A stretch of DNA of 64,000 nt from positions 1-64,000 of IMG/VR virus record IMGVR_UViG_3300049306_000006, one strand, 5' to 3'. The translations under genes were made by a program, and so were the position numbers. The notes below the pieces were generated by a model. It made no database searches. It was not told the DNA's origin and saw only the letters and a program-made list of their open reading frames with translations. This stretch comes from a virus (Duplodnaviria > Caudoviricetes). Shown one piece after another: positions 7,899-15,894 of the stretch (the first letter of the stretch is position 1; each line of letters opens with the position of its first letter).

Positions 7899-8414
7899 TC
7901 ACGACAGGTCTCGAGCGTCGCTGACGCGTATCTCAGCGGCCGCTCTCGGATCGATCTTTCCTAACGCGTCGACGAACAGCGTCGGCCAGGTTACCTGTTC
8001 ACCCTCCGACCACAGCGGAAAGATGTCCGCCGAGCCGTCCGTGGGAAGCTCAGCCCCGAGCGCGGCTGTGAGCTCAGCCGCGGGAACGGTCTTAGGTACC
8101 GTGATTACCGCGACGAACTCAGCCCCCAGCGACTCCGCGTAGGTGATCATTCTCACGACCGCGCTAGCAACCGCGCTAGCGGCCGTGAGGTCTCCCTTCG
8201 CTCTGGCTTGCCAGACGCCGAGCTGACCGTTGTCGATGTATCCTACCCAGGTAGGTATGTTCTTAAACCTGTCGAACGCCGCTGCTACGAACCGGGGTTC
8301 TACGACGACTACGAACGACGTCTGGTCCGCCAGCTGTGCTGCGAGCTCGGAGATCGCTTTCCTACGACTAATGATTGAACCAATCATCGTTCTGCTCCTA
8401 GTTTCTTCTCTCAC
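7899..8414 (-). CDS. hypothetical protein
   Basis: AGGAG RBS before ATG (MIGSIISRR). Confidence 0.6.
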   Translation of the reverse strand: MREETRSRTMIGSIISRRKAISELAAQLADQTSFVVVVEPRFVAAAFDRFKNIPTWVGYIDNGQLGVWQARAKGDLTAASAVASAVVRMITYAESLGAEFVAVITVPKTVPAAELTAALGAELPTDGSADIFPLWSEGEQVTWPTLFVDALGKIDPRAAAEIRVSDARDLS

Positions 8415-8865
8415 CGCTGACTTTATATTTAAGATCTTGTAACTCTCTCGTCGCTAACTTCTGCACAGCATATTCAAGATCTTAGGAGTTGGACAGTTGG
8501 ACGGAAAAGTGCGGAATTCAGCTTCAGGCCCACGTACGTACCCAAGCGTACCCCTGCGTATACGTCTAGCTGCTAACTTGTTTTTTTCTGTCCAACTGTC
8601 CAACTGGCTTAGTCCAGCTATAATAATAAATAAGAATATAATCTCTACTATATAAAACATCTCACATCATAAGATCAAAAACTTGGACACTTCGTGGTCC
8701 AGCTAGCTGTCCAACTCTCCGAAAAAGCTGTCCAACTAGCTCAAACACATCACCGTGTTGAAAAATTTAAGTCACAAGTGAGTTGGACACTTCTCTCCAG
8801 AGCAACTTGGACTCAATCATTGATCAACATCTGTGACGTTTCACCGCACCAGCAGATTCACAAGC
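8415..8865. repeat. AT-rich region with GTCCAACT iterons; putative replication origin
   Basis: Seven perfect GTCCAACT/AGTTGGAC copies (8487, 8495, 8590, 8598, 8709, 8730, 8781) plus variants, around an A/T tract, immediately downstream of the primase-helicase genes. Confidence 0.7.
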
Positions 8866-10683
8866 TTAGTTCTGCTCAGCGGCCAAGCTGGCGCGCAGCT
8901 CAGCGAGAGAGACCTCCTGTAGGCGCCAGCCCTCCCACCGGCGAACTCCCGACTTGCAGTCGGTAAACCCGTGATTGGCGCGCAGCTCCGCGTTGAAGCC
9001 CCGCAGTCCGAGCTGTTCTACCCTGTCGTAGCGATCGCCGTAGACCTTGCACCAGCTGGTGTACGTGCTGTACAGCGTCTCCTGAGGCACGTACGTGCTG
9101 GCCGTCCCGTAGGCGCGCTCGTCCTGAGGCACCCACGTCAGCCGCCCCGAGTCCCTGGCCCAGCGCAGAAAGTCACCGAGGTGGTAGAGCTCGTCCGTCA
9201 CGTCGGACGTAGTTTCCGCTCCCGTCAGACCGGTTGCCCTGGCCGCTTGCGGCGCGCCGGAAGCGCTGAAGGCGGCCTCGACGTCGGCCGTCCCGTCGCG
9301 CCTGGCCTCGACGAACCCGCGCACCAGCAGCGCCAGCAGCCACTCGGCGACGACCCGGTCTCTGACGAAGCGCTCCTTGATCTCGGTATCCTCTAGGGAC
9401 TTGGGTAGCGTCTGGTCCATGCGCGGAACCAGCAGCCGCCGGCGCGTCGCCTCGTCGGCGCCGACGATTCGCGGCAGCTCGTTCGCGTAGACGACCGGCA
9501 GGCACACCGGCGTCTGCTCGACGAAGACGTCCGAGCGCATCGCGCGCTGCGGATCCTGGTCACCTCCCGTGAACTGTTTGATCCGGCTGGCGTGCAGCTC
9601 CCACCTGCGCGAGGCCTCCGGCAGGAAGACCAGGCGCTTGCCGTACAACCGGATCACGTCCGGGCGCGGCCTGTCACCCTTGCTCTGGTAGAAGATCGAC
9701 GCCGGGCTGGTGGCCGCGTAGCGGCCCAGCAGCCGTGACAGCGCGGCCACGAGCTGCGTCTTGCCGCTGGTGGTACCGCCGCGCAGGATGACGAAGTACC
9801 GGTGCGGGTTGCCCGCCGCCAGCGCGTGGCCGAGCAGCTTGAAGATCAGCTCTAGCTTGCCCGGCTCCGGCAGGAAGGTCTCGACGAACTGCTTGGCCAG
9901 CTCCGGCGGTGACTCTAGGATCTCCGGCCGCCAGGCGGCCGCCGCGACGCTGTGACACATGTCGTCCAGCTCGCGTCGCCGACACGTGACGTCCCAGCCC
10001 GTCCCGTCCTCTTGACCCAGCTCTAGGACACGCCCGTCGCCGACGGCGACCAGGTTCTTCCGGTCGTCGAAGTCCGTCACACCGCCGACGCGCAGCCCGT
10101 AGCGGTCCGTGCCGATGATCGCGGCGGCCGCCCGCCCGCGCAGCGTGTCCGAGCGCCTGGCCCACGCGCGCAGCGCCGTCGCTCGCTCGCGCAGGCGAAC
10201 CGCCTCGTCACACGAGGCACCGCTGGCTGCGCCGCTGGCTGCGCCGCTGTCTGTCTCCGCCTCTACGACCTGCGCGTCACGCTCCAGGACGTCGGCCCGC
10301 TCGTAGAGCTCAGCTATGACCTGGTCCGCGGCGCGCGCCACGACGCCCGTCCGGTCCCTGTCCCATAGGTTAGTCTCGTCCGCGACGTAGTACGTCCTGT
10401 TTCCGCGCTCGTCCACGTGAGCCAGGACGCGGTGCCCGAAGCGCAGCGCGAACCTGTCGCCGTTGCCGCCGTCCGTGTCGCGCAGCTGCTCACAGGTCTT
10501 GGCGCGCAGCGCAGCCAGGTTCTGGCGCGCCGCTCGCGCCGAGACGCAGGCCAGCTCCACCGGTCCGAGCTGACCCTCGCCGTAGTCGTCAGCTTGGCCG
10601 TCGCTCCCGTCGTCACGCTCACTACCGCCGACGACCCGGTCCTGGTCCGTGAGCTCTCGGCTCGTGAACGGCTCGCCGGTCAC
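8866..10683 (-). CDS. D5/P4-family SF3 helicase (primase-associated)
   Basis: D5_N-like region (GNGDRFALRF...WDRD), Walker A GGTTSGKT, Walker B LVFLPE, IKQFTGGD, RRRL. Confidence 0.85.
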   Translation of the reverse strand: MTGEPFTSRELTDQDRVVGGSERDDGSDGQADDYGEGQLGPVELACVSARAARQNLAALRAKTCEQLRDTDGGNGDRFALRFGHRVLAHVDERGNRTYYVADETNLWDRDRTGVVARAADQVIAELYERADVLERDAQVVEAETDSGAASGAASGASCDEAVRLRERATALRAWARRSDTLRGRAAAAIIGTDRYGLRVGGVTDFDDRKNLVAVGDGRVLELGQEDGTGWDVTCRRRELDDMCHSVAAAAWRPEILESPPELAKQFVETFLPEPGKLELIFKLLGHALAAGNPHRYFVILRGGTTSGKTQLVAALSRLLGRYAATSPASIFYQSKGDRPRPDVIRLYGKRLVFLPEASRRWELHASRIKQFTGGDQDPQRAMRSDVFVEQTPVCLPVVYANELPRIVGADEATRRRLLVPRMDQTLPKSLEDTEIKERFVRDRVVAEWLLALLVRGFVEARRDGTADVEAAFSASGAPQAARATGLTGAETTSDVTDELYHLGDFLRWARDSGRLTWVPQDERAYGTASTYVPQETLYSTYTSWCKVYGDRYDRVEQLGLRGFNAELRANHGFTDCKSGVRRWEGWRLQEVSLAELRASLAAEQN

Positions 10684-12404: not shown

Positions 12405-12854
12405 TTGTCTAGTCAGACAGCTCTTACCTATGAAGACGTCCGCCTGGAGGGCCGCGACGGCGAGCCGCACAGCTTCACCGGCGTGCTGCTCGGGCGCAGC
12501 ACGAGCCGCGCGGACCACCACGCGCACCCCGGCGACTTCGCGGACCGCGGCGAGAAGTGCTCCGCCTGCCGCTGGTTCGAGGTCGCGCTGTACCGGCGAC
12601 GTGCGCGGACCGCGGACGCACCGACGACGTACGACTACGTCGTTCACACCGTCGGCGGCACCGTGGTTCCCGGCGAGAGCCGGCGTAGCCGCGTCTCGTA
12701 CACGCCGTCCGCGTACGACGTCATCGAGATCCTAACCGTTCGGCCGCGCGACGGCCAGCCGTTCATCGCGCAGCAGTCCGCCCGCGTCCTGGCGCTGGCC
12801 GCCGCGCTGGACGACGACGTTCACGACGCTTACGTGAATAGGGCCATAGTATAG
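12405..12854 (+). CDS. hypothetical protein (CSACRW)
   Basis: GAGAGGA RBS; first gene of the rightward arm. Confidence 0.7.
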   Translation: MSSQTALTYEDVRLEGRDGEPHSFTGVLLGRSTSRADHHAHPGDFADRGEKCSACRWFEVALYRRRARTADAPTTYDYVVHTVGGTVVPGESRRSRVSYTPSAYDVIEILTVRPRDGQPFIAQQSARVLALAAALDDDVHDAYVNRAIV

Positions 12855-12881
12855 TATGATCACTGAGAGAGGAGAGAAGCT

Positions 12882-13151
12882 GTGAAGCTAGCTGAACTGC
12901 ACGCCGGCGCGCTGGTCGAAGCGAGCGTAGTCCGGCTGAACGGCTGCCGCTGGGACGAAGTCATAGAACGTGATCACGCACAACGTTATGACATTCACGT
13001 AGGATGGCATTCCTTCGTACCGCCCACCGACGCTCAGCGCCTGGCTCGCGCGCGTGAACGCCGGGCGTTGCGTCGCTACGCCGAAGCGCTAGCCGCGGGC
13101 TTGTCCGAGGCCGAAGCGTGCGAGGACGGCTGGCCGAGGGGAGAGCTGTGA
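12882..13151 (+). CDS. hypothetical protein
   Basis: TATGAT -10 element and GAGGAG RBS. Confidence 0.6.
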   Translation: MKLAELHAGALVEASVVRLNGCRWDEVIERDHAQRYDIHVGWHSFVPPTDAQRLARARERRALRRYAEALAAGLSEAEACEDGWPRGEL

Positions 13152-13375
13152 CCTTCACCGAGTTCATCAACGAGACGGCGTGGCTCGGCTACGTCCTGGG
13201 CAGCGTTCTCGTCGTCCTAGGCGTAGTCGTCGTGGCGACGCTGCTGACGCGCGACCGGGTAGACGACGGCTACCGCTGGCTCGGCGACGAGGCCGAGCCC
13301 GTCGAGCGGCGCTCACCGTTCGCACCCGTCCGGCCGGCTGAGCTGACCGAGACGTGTGAGCGGCGGCCGACGTGA
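13148..13375 (+). CDS. small membrane protein
   Basis: GTG coupled start; hydrophobic LGYVLGSVLVVLGVVVVATLL. Confidence 0.6.
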   Translation: MTFTEFINETAWLGYVLGSVLVVLGVVVVATLLTRDRVDDGYRWLGDEAEPVERRSPFAPVRPAELTETCERRPT

Positions 13376-13779
13376 GCCGCGCGGACAACTCCTGGGCGGC
13401 GCGTCGTAGCCGGCTGGCGGACTACCGGGTACCGCTCGTGAGCGAGACGGTGCTGGAGTACGCCTACGCCATGGGAGGTCGCGTGTGTGACCTACCGGCT
13501 CCGTACCTGGACGCCGTCGCCGAGGCCAACCGGCGGACGTACCCGACGAGCGTCAACCGCCGAGTCGCCGACCTGATGGCCGGACGCCGGTTCGCCGGCT
13601 CGCTTCACCCCCTGCTCGCCGGGCTGACCTACGCCGAGGTGCGGAAGTTCTACGCGCTGCGTGACCGGACCCAGTGCGAGCGCTACCGCCGGGCGCGCGG
13701 CCAGCTGCCGCGCGCCGAGTGGCTGGCTCGCCGGCGTGCGAGCGCCGAGAGCGCGCGTACCGTCACCGCGCACACGTGA
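13372..13779 (+). CDS. hypothetical protein
   Basis: GTGA coupling. Confidence 0.6.
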   Translation: MSRADNSWAARRSRLADYRVPLVSETVLEYAYAMGGRVCDLPAPYLDAVAEANRRTYPTSVNRRVADLMAGRRFAGSLHPLLAGLTYAEVRKFYALRDRTQCERYRRARGQLPRAEWLARRRASAESARTVTAHT

Positions 13780-13833
13780 TATAGTAGGTAGCGCTGAGGT
13801 ACAACCCTTCGTAACACACGAGGAGAACGACTG

Positions 13834-14070
13834 GTGATCGACTTAACGAGCGTCGAGTGGCGCAAGAGCAGCCGCTCCGGCGCCTACGGAGACAACTGCG
13901 TCGAGGTAGCTTTCGCCGACGACGACGGCGGCGGTTTCACCGCTGCCGTCGGCGAACGTACCGTCTTGGTTCGTGACTCGAAGAGTCCCGGCGGACCGGT
14001 GCTGACCTTCACCGCCGGCGAGTGGAACGCCTTCGTCGCCGGCGCGCGTGACGGCGAGTTCGACCTGTAG
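13834..14070 (+). CDS. DUF397 protein (copy 1)
   Basis: WRKSSRS..NCVEVA...VRDSK...LTFTAGEWNAFVAG signature; GAGGAG RBS. Confidence 0.9.
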   Translation: MIDLTSVEWRKSSRSGAYGDNCVEVAFADDDGGGFTAAVGERTVLVRDSKSPGGPVLTFTAGEWNAFVAGARDGEFDL

Positions 14071-14074
14071 CTCG

Positions 14075-14340
14075 CTTAGGACCGCGACGGCGTCAACCCC
14101 GGCTCCACCTATACCTTCACCGGGGAAGGACGGCCAAGACTCGAGCGTGAGGGCTCGACAGTCGTACCTGCGCCGTCGCGGCTCTAGCGTGACAGCTGTG
14201 TAGACAAACCGCACAGAGCGCACAGACTGCGCCGAACAACGACGAACAACGACGAACAAACTACACGCTAGACGCCAGAGTGGTGTACGCGGAACGAAGC
14301 CGCTGGACCGCCCACGCCGAGGTGGTAACCCAGTTCAAAA
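14075..14340 (+). ncRNA. candidate structured non-coding RNA
   Basis: Nested perfect stems 14082-92/14171-81, 14097-102/14120-25, 14141-46/14153-58 and 14183-91/14264-72; no credible ORF; strand inferred from flanking genes. Confidence 0.5.
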
Positions 14341-14358
14341 AACACAGAGGAGAGACGA

Positions 14359-14685
14359 GTGAAACTAGTAAAACCGCTCGAGACCGCTCGAGCGTCCGCG
14401 CAGTCCCTGCGCGAGACCGTCGACTCGTGGCTGCACGGCTTACTCAAGCACATGGCAGCGGCGCGCGCCGCGGACGAGCGCGTCCAACGGCGGCTCGGTC
14501 AGGTTCGAGTCCTGTACCAGAACCTGACCGAGGAGCAGCTGCGTGCCAAGGTCAAGGTCGACTACGACCTTAACGACGCGCTCAGCGAGTACCGACAGCA
14601 CTGCAGCGAGGTCCAGCGCTACTCGAACGCGATTCAGGCGCTGGCCGCGGGACACGAGCTTCTGACCGAGCTGAGCGAGCGCTAG
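14359..14685 (+). CDS. hypothetical coiled-coil protein
   Basis: GAGGAG RBS. Confidence 0.7.
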   Translation: MKLVKPLETARASAQSLRETVDSWLHGLLKHMAAARAADERVQRRLGQVRVLYQNLTEEQLRAKVKVDYDLNDALSEYRQHCSEVQRYSNAIQALAAGHELLTELSER

Positions 14686-14792
14686 CTCGGCGTCGACTTG
14701 CACGAGCGACTGACCTCGTTGTAGGATCACAGACAAGAGCCGCGTGACGCTAGCGCGAGAGACGAAGAGCAGAGAGTGAGAAGTGATGATTC

Positions 14793-15755
14793 ATGAGTGA
14801 CCAGAAGTGGCAGGACAACTTTAAGCTACGCTGCCAGGCCGTCGGCTGGCGCGTCGAGACGTCCAAGTCGAACCACAACAAGGTGTTCAGCCGGTCCGGC
14901 CAGCTGCTGCTGACGTACTCCGGGACGCCGAGCGACCGGCGTACGATGCTAAACGTGCTGGGACAGGCCAAGCGCGCCGGCCTCGAGCAGCTCGAGGCCG
15001 ACCAGAGGCTGGCCGCCGAGCGTGACAGGCTGACACGCATCGAGGTCGACAGGACGTCCAACGGTCACGTCGAGAGCCGGGTGACACCTCCCGTGTTCGT
15101 CGCGCCGGTCACCTCCGACGCGGCGCCGTTTCCCGCGACGGCCGAGCCGCGGAGCGAGCTCGGCCTAGGTCAGGTCGACGGCGTCGCGATCGTCGCCGTC
15201 GCACCCGCCAAGACGCAGACTCCAGTCATGGCGCAGCCGGCTCCGCTGGCTAACGCCGAGGAGCTGCTGCTGGCCGACGGTCGTGTGCTGTACCGGTGCC
15301 TCAAGCCGCAGCCGCTAACGGGTAACCCCTGTCACCGAACCTTCGAGACGGTCAACAGCGTGCGAGCCCACATTATTCACCACGCTCGTACCGCGGGGTC
15401 GCTGCGAGACCGAGACGTCGAGCCGGTGAAGCCGGTGAAGACAACGAAGGTTGCGAAGCCCGTAAAACCAGTGAAGCCTAGGGAGAAGAGCTCAGTGACA
15501 ACCACCGCCTCACCCGTGTCCGCGTCCGGCGAGCCGCCGACAGAGAGTCCCGCGAGCGACCGGGCGAGCGTCACGCAGCTCCAGCGGCGCGTGACGGCGA
15601 TCACCGAAGCGCTCGAGCTCATCTCGAACGGCGTGCGAGCCGTCTCACAAGAGGTGTCCGAGATCCAGTGTGAGCTCAACGAGCTCCAGGTGACCAGCGC
15701 CGAGACGCTGCGCAAGGCTGAGCAGTTCGACAACCTGAAGGCTATGCTGAGCTAG
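14793..15755 (+). CDS. HicA-like N-terminal domain + C2H2-like zinc finger + coiled coil
   Basis: GWRVETSKSNHNKV...GTPSDRRTMLN..KRAG (actinophage HicA-like); RCLK...CHRTFETVNSVRAHIIHH. Confidence 0.6.
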   Translation: MSDQKWQDNFKLRCQAVGWRVETSKSNHNKVFSRSGQLLLTYSGTPSDRRTMLNVLGQAKRAGLEQLEADQRLAAERDRLTRIEVDRTSNGHVESRVTPPVFVAPVTSDAAPFPATAEPRSELGLGQVDGVAIVAVAPAKTQTPVMAQPAPLANAEELLLADGRVLYRCLKPQPLTGNPCHRTFETVNSVRAHIIHHARTAGSLRDRDVEPVKPVKTTKVAKPVKPVKPREKSSVTTTASPVSASGEPPTESPASDRASVTQLQRRVTAITEALELISNGVRAVSQEVSEIQCELNELQVTSAETLRKAEQFDNLKAMLS

Positions 15756-15805
15756 GGCCGCGAGCGCCCCGCGAGCGTCCCGTAGACGTGTACGCTAGTT
15801 TCTAC

Positions 15806-15843
15806 GCGCGATCGAGCGCAGCCTTCCCCGCGCTCGATCGCGC
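15806..15843 (+). terminator. 14-bp perfect hairpin, probable terminator
   Basis: GCGCGATCGAGCGC-N10-GCGCTCGATCGCGC after the HicA-like gene. Confidence 0.6.
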
Positions 15844-15894
15844 ACGTAAGACCTAATCGTTCACCTGAGACACAGCGAGAAAGAGAAGAAAACC

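What the first reader, a model, noticed from the sequence alone, without database searches (positions are those of the whole stretch)
14075..14340. Highly structured ~270-nt non-coding RNA candidate with an anti-Shine-Dalgarno-like loop
Seen: an otherwise densely packed genome leaves a ~290-bp gap. Domain 1 is an 11-bp closing stem (CCGCGACGGCG/CGCCGTCGCGG) enclosing a CCCCGG/CCGGGG hairpin with loop CTCCACCTATACCTTCA and an ACGGC..TCGAGC/GCTCGA..GTCGT arm. Domain 2 is a TCTAGCGTG/CACGCTAGA stem enclosing two small hairpins and an unpaired CGAACAACGA repeat (about 2.7 copies, 14233-14259). Inference: an sRNA whose C/U loop could pair with AGGUGGAG-like ribosome binding sites, or a protein-sponge or antitoxin RNA. 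It matches no tRNA or ribozyme consensus I recognise.
Basis: partly seen in the sequence, partly recalled or inferred. Interest (0 to 1): 0.7.

Follow-up and report, generated by a model that had tools for sequence, protein, structure and literature searches.

The report
Orphan structured spacer RNA in an actinophage
A 288-base non-coding spacer inside an early operon of an uncultivated actinomycete phage folds into two compact branched hairpin domains, but it has no relatives in any database searched, so whether it is a working RNA or a leftover of a swapped-out tRNA cassette cannot be settled from sequence.

Summary
Window 14071-14358 is non-coding, with no codon-phase GC signal. Domain 1 (14079-14184) and domain 2 (14183-14272) fold better than shuffles on the + strand (z -3.4 and -4.5).

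A genome-wide control tempers this. With boundaries optimised, 92 local structures in this 98.9-kb phage reach z <= -3.4, and D1 ranks 19th. Long-range 11-bp inverted repeats occur at about chance frequency.

No tRNA and no Rfam family matches. No homologue was found in phage, viral-contig, metagenome or actinomycete genome collections, so covariation cannot be tested.

Context is the most informative evidence. The spacer lies behind a conserved TG-extended -10 box. In five distant relatives the same slot carries tRNA-Met, a tRNA-like RNA and a leader RNA (M3) with compensatory changes. Here a DUF397 gene and D1/D2 take their place. D1 weakly resembles M3 (14.9 bits).

Best reading (about 0.4): a co-transcribed, cis-acting intercistronic RNA structure, possibly released as a stable fragment. 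The anti-Shine-Dalgarno, sponge and antitoxin ideas have no support. Interest is low to moderate.

The parts
13777..13785 (+). TG-extended -10-like promoter box (TGATATAGT), the likely start of the transcript that carries DUF397, the spacer and the downstream genes
   Evidence: The same 9-mer or a near-variant occurs at 5 other places in the genome. A similar box sits at the syntenic position in relatives L002, L004, L005 and L007. Promoter function is inferred.
13834..14070 (+). DUF397 gene (78 aa), absent from the syntenic slot of the relatives
   Evidence: Pfam PF04149, E 1.5e-24. Third-position GC is 0.84. Nearest homologues are 64-67% identical, from Micromonosporaceae-like genomes and other phage contigs.
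14079..14184 (+). Domain 1: three-way junction with a 12-bp closing helix, a 6-bp hairpin with a 17-nt C/U-rich loop, and a bulged arm ending in a 6-bp hairpin
   Evidence: MFE -53.0 kcal/mol, z -3.41, 1/200 shuffles. 34 pairs: 26 GC, 5 AU, 3 GU. Rank 19 of 1876 local structures. Best + strand match in the window to the relatives' M3 model, 14.9 bits.
14103..14119 (+). 17-nt loop CTCCACCTATACCTTCA (the 'anti-SD-like' loop)
   Evidence: Unpaired in the MFE and centroid structures. Exact-match scans of viral and metagenome contigs gave only chance hits, one of them inside a 2284-aa ORF.
14183..14272 (+). Domain 2: 9-bp closing helix around two small hairpins and an unpaired A/C-rich stretch
   Evidence: MFE -26.7 kcal/mol, z -4.50, 0/200 shuffles. 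Helices are listed.
14233..14259 (+). Tandem repeat, unit CGAACAACGA, 2.7 copies, predicted single-stranded
   Evidence: TRF score 54, 100% match. The unit is unique to this site in the 98.9-kb genome.
14272..14301 (+). Possible remnant of the 5' part (acceptor strand plus D arm) of the tRNA-like module T2 seen in relatives L004 and L007; no T arm follows
   Evidence: Local alignment of 31 columns, 25 identical, score 30 against a shuffle mean of 20.9; 2/200 shuffles reach it. Marginal after multiple comparisons.
14343..14685 (+). RBS (GAGGAGAG) and 108-aa gene, the conserved downstream anchor of the slot
   Evidence: Homologues P0002-P0004 are 48-57% identical. The RBS is unpaired in the MFE apart from a weak outer helix.

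Best explanation
The spacer is a lineage-specific, non-coding part of an 'RNA slot' behind a conserved early promoter. It is transcribed together with DUF397 and the downstream 108-aa gene. Its two compact branched domains act in cis on that transcript. D1 starts 9-12 nt after the DUF397 stop codon, where it could block 3' exonucleases or partly stop transcription. D1 and D2 together would form a protected 5' block or processing site for the downstream message. A stable fragment of about 100-200 nt may be released as a by-product, much as the tRNA is cut out of the same slot in relatives.

Shown: the spacer is non-coding, the helices exist, the + strand is favoured, no internal promoter was found, and relatives carry RNA genes in the same slot.

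Inferred: co-transcription, processing, and any effect on stability or termination.
For: - Non-coding.
- All six main helices have no internal mismatches, which argues against old, decaying junk.
- z is better on the transcribed strand than on its complement.
- No promoter-like site lies inside the gap, and a conserved TG-extended -10 box lies upstream.
- This phage's other intergenic hairpins also lack U tails, so a hairpin without a U tail is the local norm for gene boundaries.
- In L002-L007 the same slot holds tRNA-Met and structured RNAs. One of these, M3, keeps its helices through compensatory changes.
- D1 is the best + strand match in 64 kb to the M3 model: 14.9 bits, with two hits at or above that score in 128 kb searched. 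That gives p of about 0.005 for the 288-nt syntenic gap.
Against: - No homologue exists, so there is no covariation.
- Equally strong local folds are common in this genome, including inside genes.
- The 11-bp long-range repeat alone is at chance frequency.
- Branched domains are not typical terminators.
- The M3 similarity is at noise level genome-wide: E 0.63, and no match at E <= 0.1 over the whole genome.
- The order of the two weak homologies is inconsistent. The window has M3-like D1 before the T2 remnant, whereas relatives have T2 before M3.
- There are no expression data.
Confidence: 0.4

Rival explanations
1. Trans-acting small RNA. D1, alone or with D2, is cut out of the operon transcript. 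Its exposed C/U-rich 17-nt loop pairs with G-rich ribosome-binding regions of host or phage mRNAs, in the way the actinobacterial 6C sRNA uses C-rich loops.
For: The loop is unpaired in the MFE and centroid structures and contains CUCC and CCACCU. 6C sRNA acts through C-rich loops without a chaperone in high-GC Gram-positives (PMC6486639, found). The slot carries stable processed RNAs in relatives.
Against: No promoter or terminator of its own. There is no match to the Rfam library, which includes the 6C family by my recollection. The 7-nt complement of the loop is absent from the + strand and precedes at most one possible start codon in the phage. Four-base CUCC/GGAG complementarity is not specific. 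The host is unknown, so host targets are untested.
Confidence: 0.2
2. No function. The spacer is debris from the recombination that replaced the ancestral tRNA-Met cassette with a DUF397 gene. The hairpins would be recent palindromic or duplicated sequence not yet eroded.
For: The slot is highly variable among relatives. A short piece looks like a decapitated tRNA-like module. D1 and D2 share a 16-nt direct repeat at 81% identity, hinting at internal duplication (D5). The tandem 10-mer is typical slippage. Strong local folds are common in this genome. No homologue was found anywhere.
Against: Six main helices without internal mismatches, nested into two closed domains, are more order than debris usually keeps. 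Phage genomes are under pressure to lose useless DNA. + strand G.U pairs give a strand bias.
Confidence: 0.25
3. DNA-level element. The inverted repeats and the 10-bp-phased direct repeats are binding sites for a phage or host DNA-binding protein, acting as an operator, an origin-like site or a recombination site.
For: The 10-bp period equals one helical turn. The inverted repeats are perfect, so both strands can form them.
Against: Neither the repeat unit nor the palindromes recur elsewhere in the genome beyond chance. No tyrosine or serine recombinase and no reverse transcriptase is encoded. A better origin candidate lies at 8400-8970 next to the primase/helicase genes. Fold z-scores favour the + strand RNA.
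Confidence: 0.08

Closest known systems
Leader module 'M3' in the distant relatives (L002 3567-3657, L004 1568-1645, L005 1733-1810, L007 1817-1901); unnamed, defined here
   Same: Same slot, between the conserved promoter box and the 108-aa gene. Same architecture: a GC-rich closing helix around two hairpins. D1 is the best + strand match in the window to its covariance model.
   Different: The score is only 14.9 bits, against 72-104 bits for true members. M3 abuts the gene, whereas D1 lies 175 nt upstream. The hairpin-A region is not alignable.
6C sRNA of Actinobacteria (PMC6486639; Rfam accession RF01066 by my recollection)
   Same: High-GC Gram-positive setting. A stable hairpin presents a pyrimidine-rich loop that could pair with G-rich mRNA sites.
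   Different: No 6C match appeared among the Rfam results. 6C has two hairpins with runs of six or more C, by my recollection. Here one loop is mixed C/U/A. 6C is a free-standing chromosomal gene.
Bacterial and phage Y RNA (YrlA, RF02553) with Ro60
   Same: A long helix formed by the 5' and 3' ends closes a branched head. Such RNAs lie beside tRNAs in actinophages. Another phage contig (L008) has DUF397, tRNA-Met, YrlA-like hits and Ro60 together (PMC4201824).
   Different: No YrlA hit in the window even at E <= 10. No T-loop motif in the gap. No TROVE/Ro60 gene in this phage.
Intercistronic stem-loops that set mRNA ends and stability (T7 RNase III sites, REP-type 3' stabilisers, U-tail-less actinobacterial terminator hairpins); named from established knowledge, not tested here
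   Same: Position directly after a stop codon inside an operon. GC-rich perfect helices. No U tail, like this phage's other intergenic hairpins.
   Different: Those elements are single hairpins. D1 and D2 are multi-branched and together span about 190 nt. No cleavage or termination data exist.

Membership tests
Any Rfam 15 family | Score at or above the family's gathering threshold | tested here: not met
   0 matches in the 64-kb window at gathering thresholds. In 13900-14500 at E <= 10, none of the six weak hits lies in the gap itself.
tRNA / tmRNA | Cloverleaf with T loop and acceptor stem detectable by ARAGORN | tested here: not met
   No gene in the window. Only spurious intron and tmRNA calls appear at a relaxed threshold. 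No GGTTCRANTCC motif in the gap.
YrlA / Y RNA | Match to the YrlA covariance model | tested here: not met
   No YrlA hit at E <= 10, although the same library finds sub-threshold YrlA hits in L008.
YrlA / Y RNA | Ro60 (TROVE) gene within about 4 kb on the same strand (PMC4201824) | tested here: not met
   PF05731 is absent from the whole 98.9-kb genome; the control genomes were found.
6C sRNA | Match to the Rfam 6C model; two hairpins with C-rich loops | tested here: not met
   No 6C match among the Rfam results. Only one pyrimidine-rich loop is present, and it has no C run.
Type III antitoxin RNA (ToxI-like) | Tandem repeats of roughly 34-36 nt directly upstream of a toxin endoRNase gene (repeat length from my recollection) | tested here: not met
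   The repeat unit is 10 nt with 2.7 copies. The downstream 108-aa and 320-aa proteins match no toxin family in Pfam or PHROGs.
Canonical intrinsic terminator | Short GC-rich hairpin followed by a U run | tested here: not met
   No + strand terminator-like site in 12800-15000. This phage's other intergenic hairpins also lack U runs, so this does not exclude a U-tail-less terminator.
Retron msr-msd RNA | Adjacent reverse transcriptase | tested here: not met
   PF00078 is absent from the genome.
M3 leader RNA of the relatives | Significant match to covariance model R3, at the syntenic site | tested here: inconclusive
   D1 scores 14.9 bits: E 0.039 over 4 kb and 0.63 over 64 kb. It is the second-best hit of the window. 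True members score 72-104 bits.
Conserved structured RNA (any) | Helices kept through compensatory changes in homologues | not testable with these tools
   No homologue of D1 or D2 was found in any collection.

The most novel reading that the evidence does not exclude
D1/D2 is a new phage-encoded regulatory RNA, processed from an early operon. Its exposed CUCCACCU...CCUUC loop imitates the 3' end of 16S rRNA or titrates G-rich ribosome-binding sites, so that the phage re-tunes host or phage translation. It would sit in a promoter-driven cassette where tRNAs, tRNA-like RNAs and other structured RNAs are exchanged between actinophages.
Probability: 0.1. Interest if true: 0.65.

Novelty: new member of a known kind. 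Interest (0 to 1): 0.3.

Why it matters
If the domains function, this would be an uncharacterised structured RNA in a little-known group of large, tRNA-rich actinomycete phages. It would mark a promoter-proximal slot where stable RNA genes are swapped: tRNA-Met, a tRNA-like RNA, a conserved leader RNA, and here D1/D2 with a DUF397 gene. That slot is a concrete place to look for new phage RNAs. The relatives' M3 and T2 modules already show compensatory changes and may be the better targets. If the domains do not function, the case is a useful caution. In a 64% GC phage, hairpin-rich non-coding stretches with z-scores near -3 to -5 are common and are not evidence of an RNA gene on their own.

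Tried and rejected
**Homologue searches that found nothing beyond chance**
- blastn against 50,697 phage records.
- Exact-pattern scans of viral contigs with the P1/P2 strand and with the loop.
- A loop scan of JGI metagenome contigs gave two chance hits, one inside a 2284-aa ORF.
- Single-sequence covariance models of D1 and D2 were run against the own genome, two relatives' records and seven loci. Only self-matches appeared.
- BLAST of the gap against 5 actinomycete genomes.
- BLAST of 13780-14700 against 401 Micromonosporaceae genomes. Only the DUF397 coding part matched. That sample includes six unpublished genomes (G144, G112, G204, G223, G219, G072). The negative statement 'not found in those searched' rests partly on them.
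- Closest DUF397 homologues were fetched, and similarity stops at the stop codon.

**Readings rejected**
- Small ORF: no codon-phase signal.
- tRNA or tmRNA.
- Y RNA.
- Retron.
- attP: no recombinase.
- Dispersed DNA motif family.
- Read-through extension of DUF397: an in-frame TAG follows three codons later (read).
- HicA-related RNA partner: the 320-aa protein has no HicA match in Pfam at E <= 1.

**Other**
- A crude gene caller missed too many genes to give a clean intergenic set, so genome-wide local-fold ranking was used instead.

Full report
**What the window is**

The window is the first 64 kb of a 98,878-bp IMG/VR virus record rated complete. GC is about 64%. The record carries 36 tRNA genes at 79.5-87.2 kb on the minus strand, outside the window. 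No integrase, resolvase or reverse transcriptase is encoded.

Nothing close is in the phage collection; the best protein-level neighbours are large actinomycete and Gordonia phages at about 30-35% identity. Genes around the finding run on the + strand:
- a DUF397 protein at 13834-14070 (PF04149, E 1.5e-24)
- a 108-aa protein at 14359-14685
- a 320-aa protein
- nucleotide-metabolism genes

**The observation**

- D1 (14079-14184) is a three-way junction. It has a 12-bp closing helix, a 6-bp hairpin with the 17-nt C/U-rich loop, and a bulged arm ending in a 6-bp hairpin.
- D2 (14183-14272) has a 9-bp closing helix, two small hairpins and the unpaired 10-nt x 2.7 repeat.
- The main helices have no internal mismatches.

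The gap is non-coding. Its three codon phases have GC of 0.65/0.57/0.61, while flanking genes show 0.83-0.88 at third positions.

The + strand folds better than shuffles: whole gap z -2.90, D1 -3.41, D2 -4.50. The complement does so less: -0.09, -2.33, -2.75.

**How much more than chance**

- On a fixed 100-nt grid over 34 kb, 28 of 684 windows reach z <= -3, many of them inside genes.
- With RNALfold-optimised boundaries over both strands of the whole genome, there are 1876 non-redundant closed structures of 80-120 nt. Of the 454 densest, 92 reach z <= -3.4 and 27 reach z <= -4.5. D1 ranks 19th.
- Perfect inverted repeats of 11 bp or more number 26, against 7.8 +/- 3.2 in shuffles. The excess is in short-loop hairpins. 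Long-range repeats like D1's closing stem are at about chance level, 7 against roughly 5.5.

The structure is real and in the top 1% of local folds, but it is not unusual enough to prove an RNA gene.

**What it is not**

- No tRNA or tmRNA.
- No Rfam family at gathering thresholds in the window, and none inside the gap at E <= 10.
- No Ro60 partner for a Y RNA.
- No reverse transcriptase for a retron.
- No recombinase for an attP.
- No internal sigma-70-like promoter or canonical terminator on the + strand.
- The 10-nt unit and the small palindromes do not recur in the genome beyond chance.
- The complement of the 'anti-SD' loop is absent from the + strand and precedes at most one possible start codon.

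**Homologues**

None was found for D1 or D2. Searches covered phage records, viral contigs, metagenome contigs, covariance-model scans of relatives, and actinomycete genomes. One search includes six unpublished genomes, and only a negative statement rests on them. Covariation, the decisive computational test, therefore cannot be run.

**Context, the most informative evidence**

The 9-mer TGATATAGT at 13777 is a TG-extended -10-like box. It or a near-variant recurs at five other places in the genome.

The 108-aa and 320-aa proteins have five distant relatives at 40-57% identity: L002/L003, L004, L005/L006 and L007. In all of them a similar box sits at the end of the upstream gene. The gap before the 108-aa gene is 270-730 nt and full of RNA genes:
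- a tRNA-Met(CAU) in every relative
- a structured module X1
- a tRNA-like module T2 in L004 and L007, with a 7-bp acceptor, a T arm, a long extra arm and an extended anticodon arm
- a leader module M3 directly before the gene, whose closing helix is kept by compensatory changes at four positions among only four sequences

None of the relatives has DUF397 there. In this phage the tRNA and M3 are gone, DUF397 has come in, and D1/D2 follow it.

Two weak links to the ancestral content remain.
- Window 14272-14301 matches the 5' part of T2: 25 of 31 columns identical, with 2 of 200 shuffles reaching the score.
- D1 is the best + strand match in the whole window to a covariance model of M3. It scores 14.9 bits, E 0.63 over 64 kb and 0.039 over 4 kb, and only one hit anywhere scores higher.

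For the a-priori 288-nt syntenic gap the M3 match corresponds to p of about 0.005. It is at noise level genome-wide, and true M3 copies score 72-104 bits. The order of the two pieces is also opposite to that in the relatives, so at most one of them is likely to be real homology.

Elsewhere, the closest DUF397 homologues in other phage contigs also sit among tRNAs. In L008 the gene lies next to sub-threshold YrlA-like hits and a Ro60 gene. DUF397 therefore seems to travel with RNA-gene islands. Similarity to the window stops exactly at the DUF397 stop codon.

**Mechanism**

I commit, at about 0.4, to a co-transcribed, cis-acting intercistronic structure.
- D1 begins 9-12 nt after the DUF397 stop codon. 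There it could act as a 3' barrier or a partial, U-tail-less terminator. This phage's other intergenic hairpins also lack U tails.
- D1 and D2 together would form a protected or processed 5' block for the downstream message, whose RBS stays unpaired.
- A stable fragment may be released, as tRNA is from the same slot in relatives.

The shown steps are the non-coding nature, the helices, the strand bias, the lack of an internal promoter and the RNA-rich synteny. Co-transcription, processing and any effect on expression are inferred.

Rivals:
- a trans-acting sRNA using the C/U loop, 6C-like in concept (PMC6486639): 0.2
- functionless recombination debris: 0.25
- a DNA-level protein-binding site: 0.08

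**Verdict**

The general idea of a structured non-coding RNA is plausible but unproven. The specific anti-SD, sponge and antitoxin mechanisms have no support. It is best filed as an orphan candidate of a known kind, a phage intercistronic structured RNA. Interest is low to moderate at 0.3. The conserved M3 and T2 modules of the relatives are probably the more rewarding targets.

Noticed in passing
L004:1568-1645, L005:1733-1810, L002:3567-3657, L007:1817-1901: A conserved structured RNA ('M3') lies directly upstream of the 108-aa gene in the relatives. Its closing helix is kept by compensatory changes at four positions in four sequences, and it has no Rfam match. It may be a new leader or regulatory RNA.
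   Followed up: partly
L004:1425-1569 and L007:1677-1820: A tRNA-like RNA ('T2') of about 145 nt has a 7-bp acceptor stem, a perfect T arm, a long extra arm and a roughly 64-nt 'anticodon' arm. ARAGORN calls it only when introns are allowed, and Rfam does not call it. It could be an intron-bearing tRNA, a Y-RNA-like mimic or something else.
   Followed up: partly
L008:2833-6143 (Logan SRR29078152, 66-kb contig, GC 42.5%): A low-GC phage contig carries, in order: a tRNA-Met homologous to that of the relatives, a DUF397 gene 67% identical to the window's, two sub-threshold YrlA-like hits with a tRNA between them, and a Ro60/TROVE gene. DUF397 appears to travel with RNA-gene islands across phages of very different GC.
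   Followed up: partly
window:14494-14532: A 13-bp perfect hairpin lies inside the 108-aa gene. It is the strongest local fold in the genome on the minus strand (z -8.2). It contains the only T-loop motif (GGTTCGAGTCC) outside the tRNA cluster. The amino acids there are not conserved in relatives.
   Followed up: partly
window:8400-8970: An AT-rich stretch (GC 0.41-0.53) has a 16-bp perfect inverted repeat (8487-8502/8590-8605) built from an 8-nt tandem unit. It lies next to the D5-like helicase and Prim-Pol genes and is a candidate replication origin.
   Followed up: no
G000:79576-87189 (outside the window, minus strand): A cluster of 36 tRNA genes includes one with an odd two-base anticodon call at 86270-86342. 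Extended -10 boxes (TGATATAGT/TGATATAAT) lie at 81216 and 81880 inside the cluster.
   Followed up: no
window:13850-16000: This early region is unusually rich in strong local folds. Examples are 13851, 14082-14181, 14476-14583, 14897-15015 and 15771-15876, several of them inside coding sequence. D1/D2 are therefore not isolated.
   Followed up: partly
Pfam gives no HicA match even at E <= 1; only PHROG 2089 (unknown function) matches residues 12-67.
   Followed up: partly
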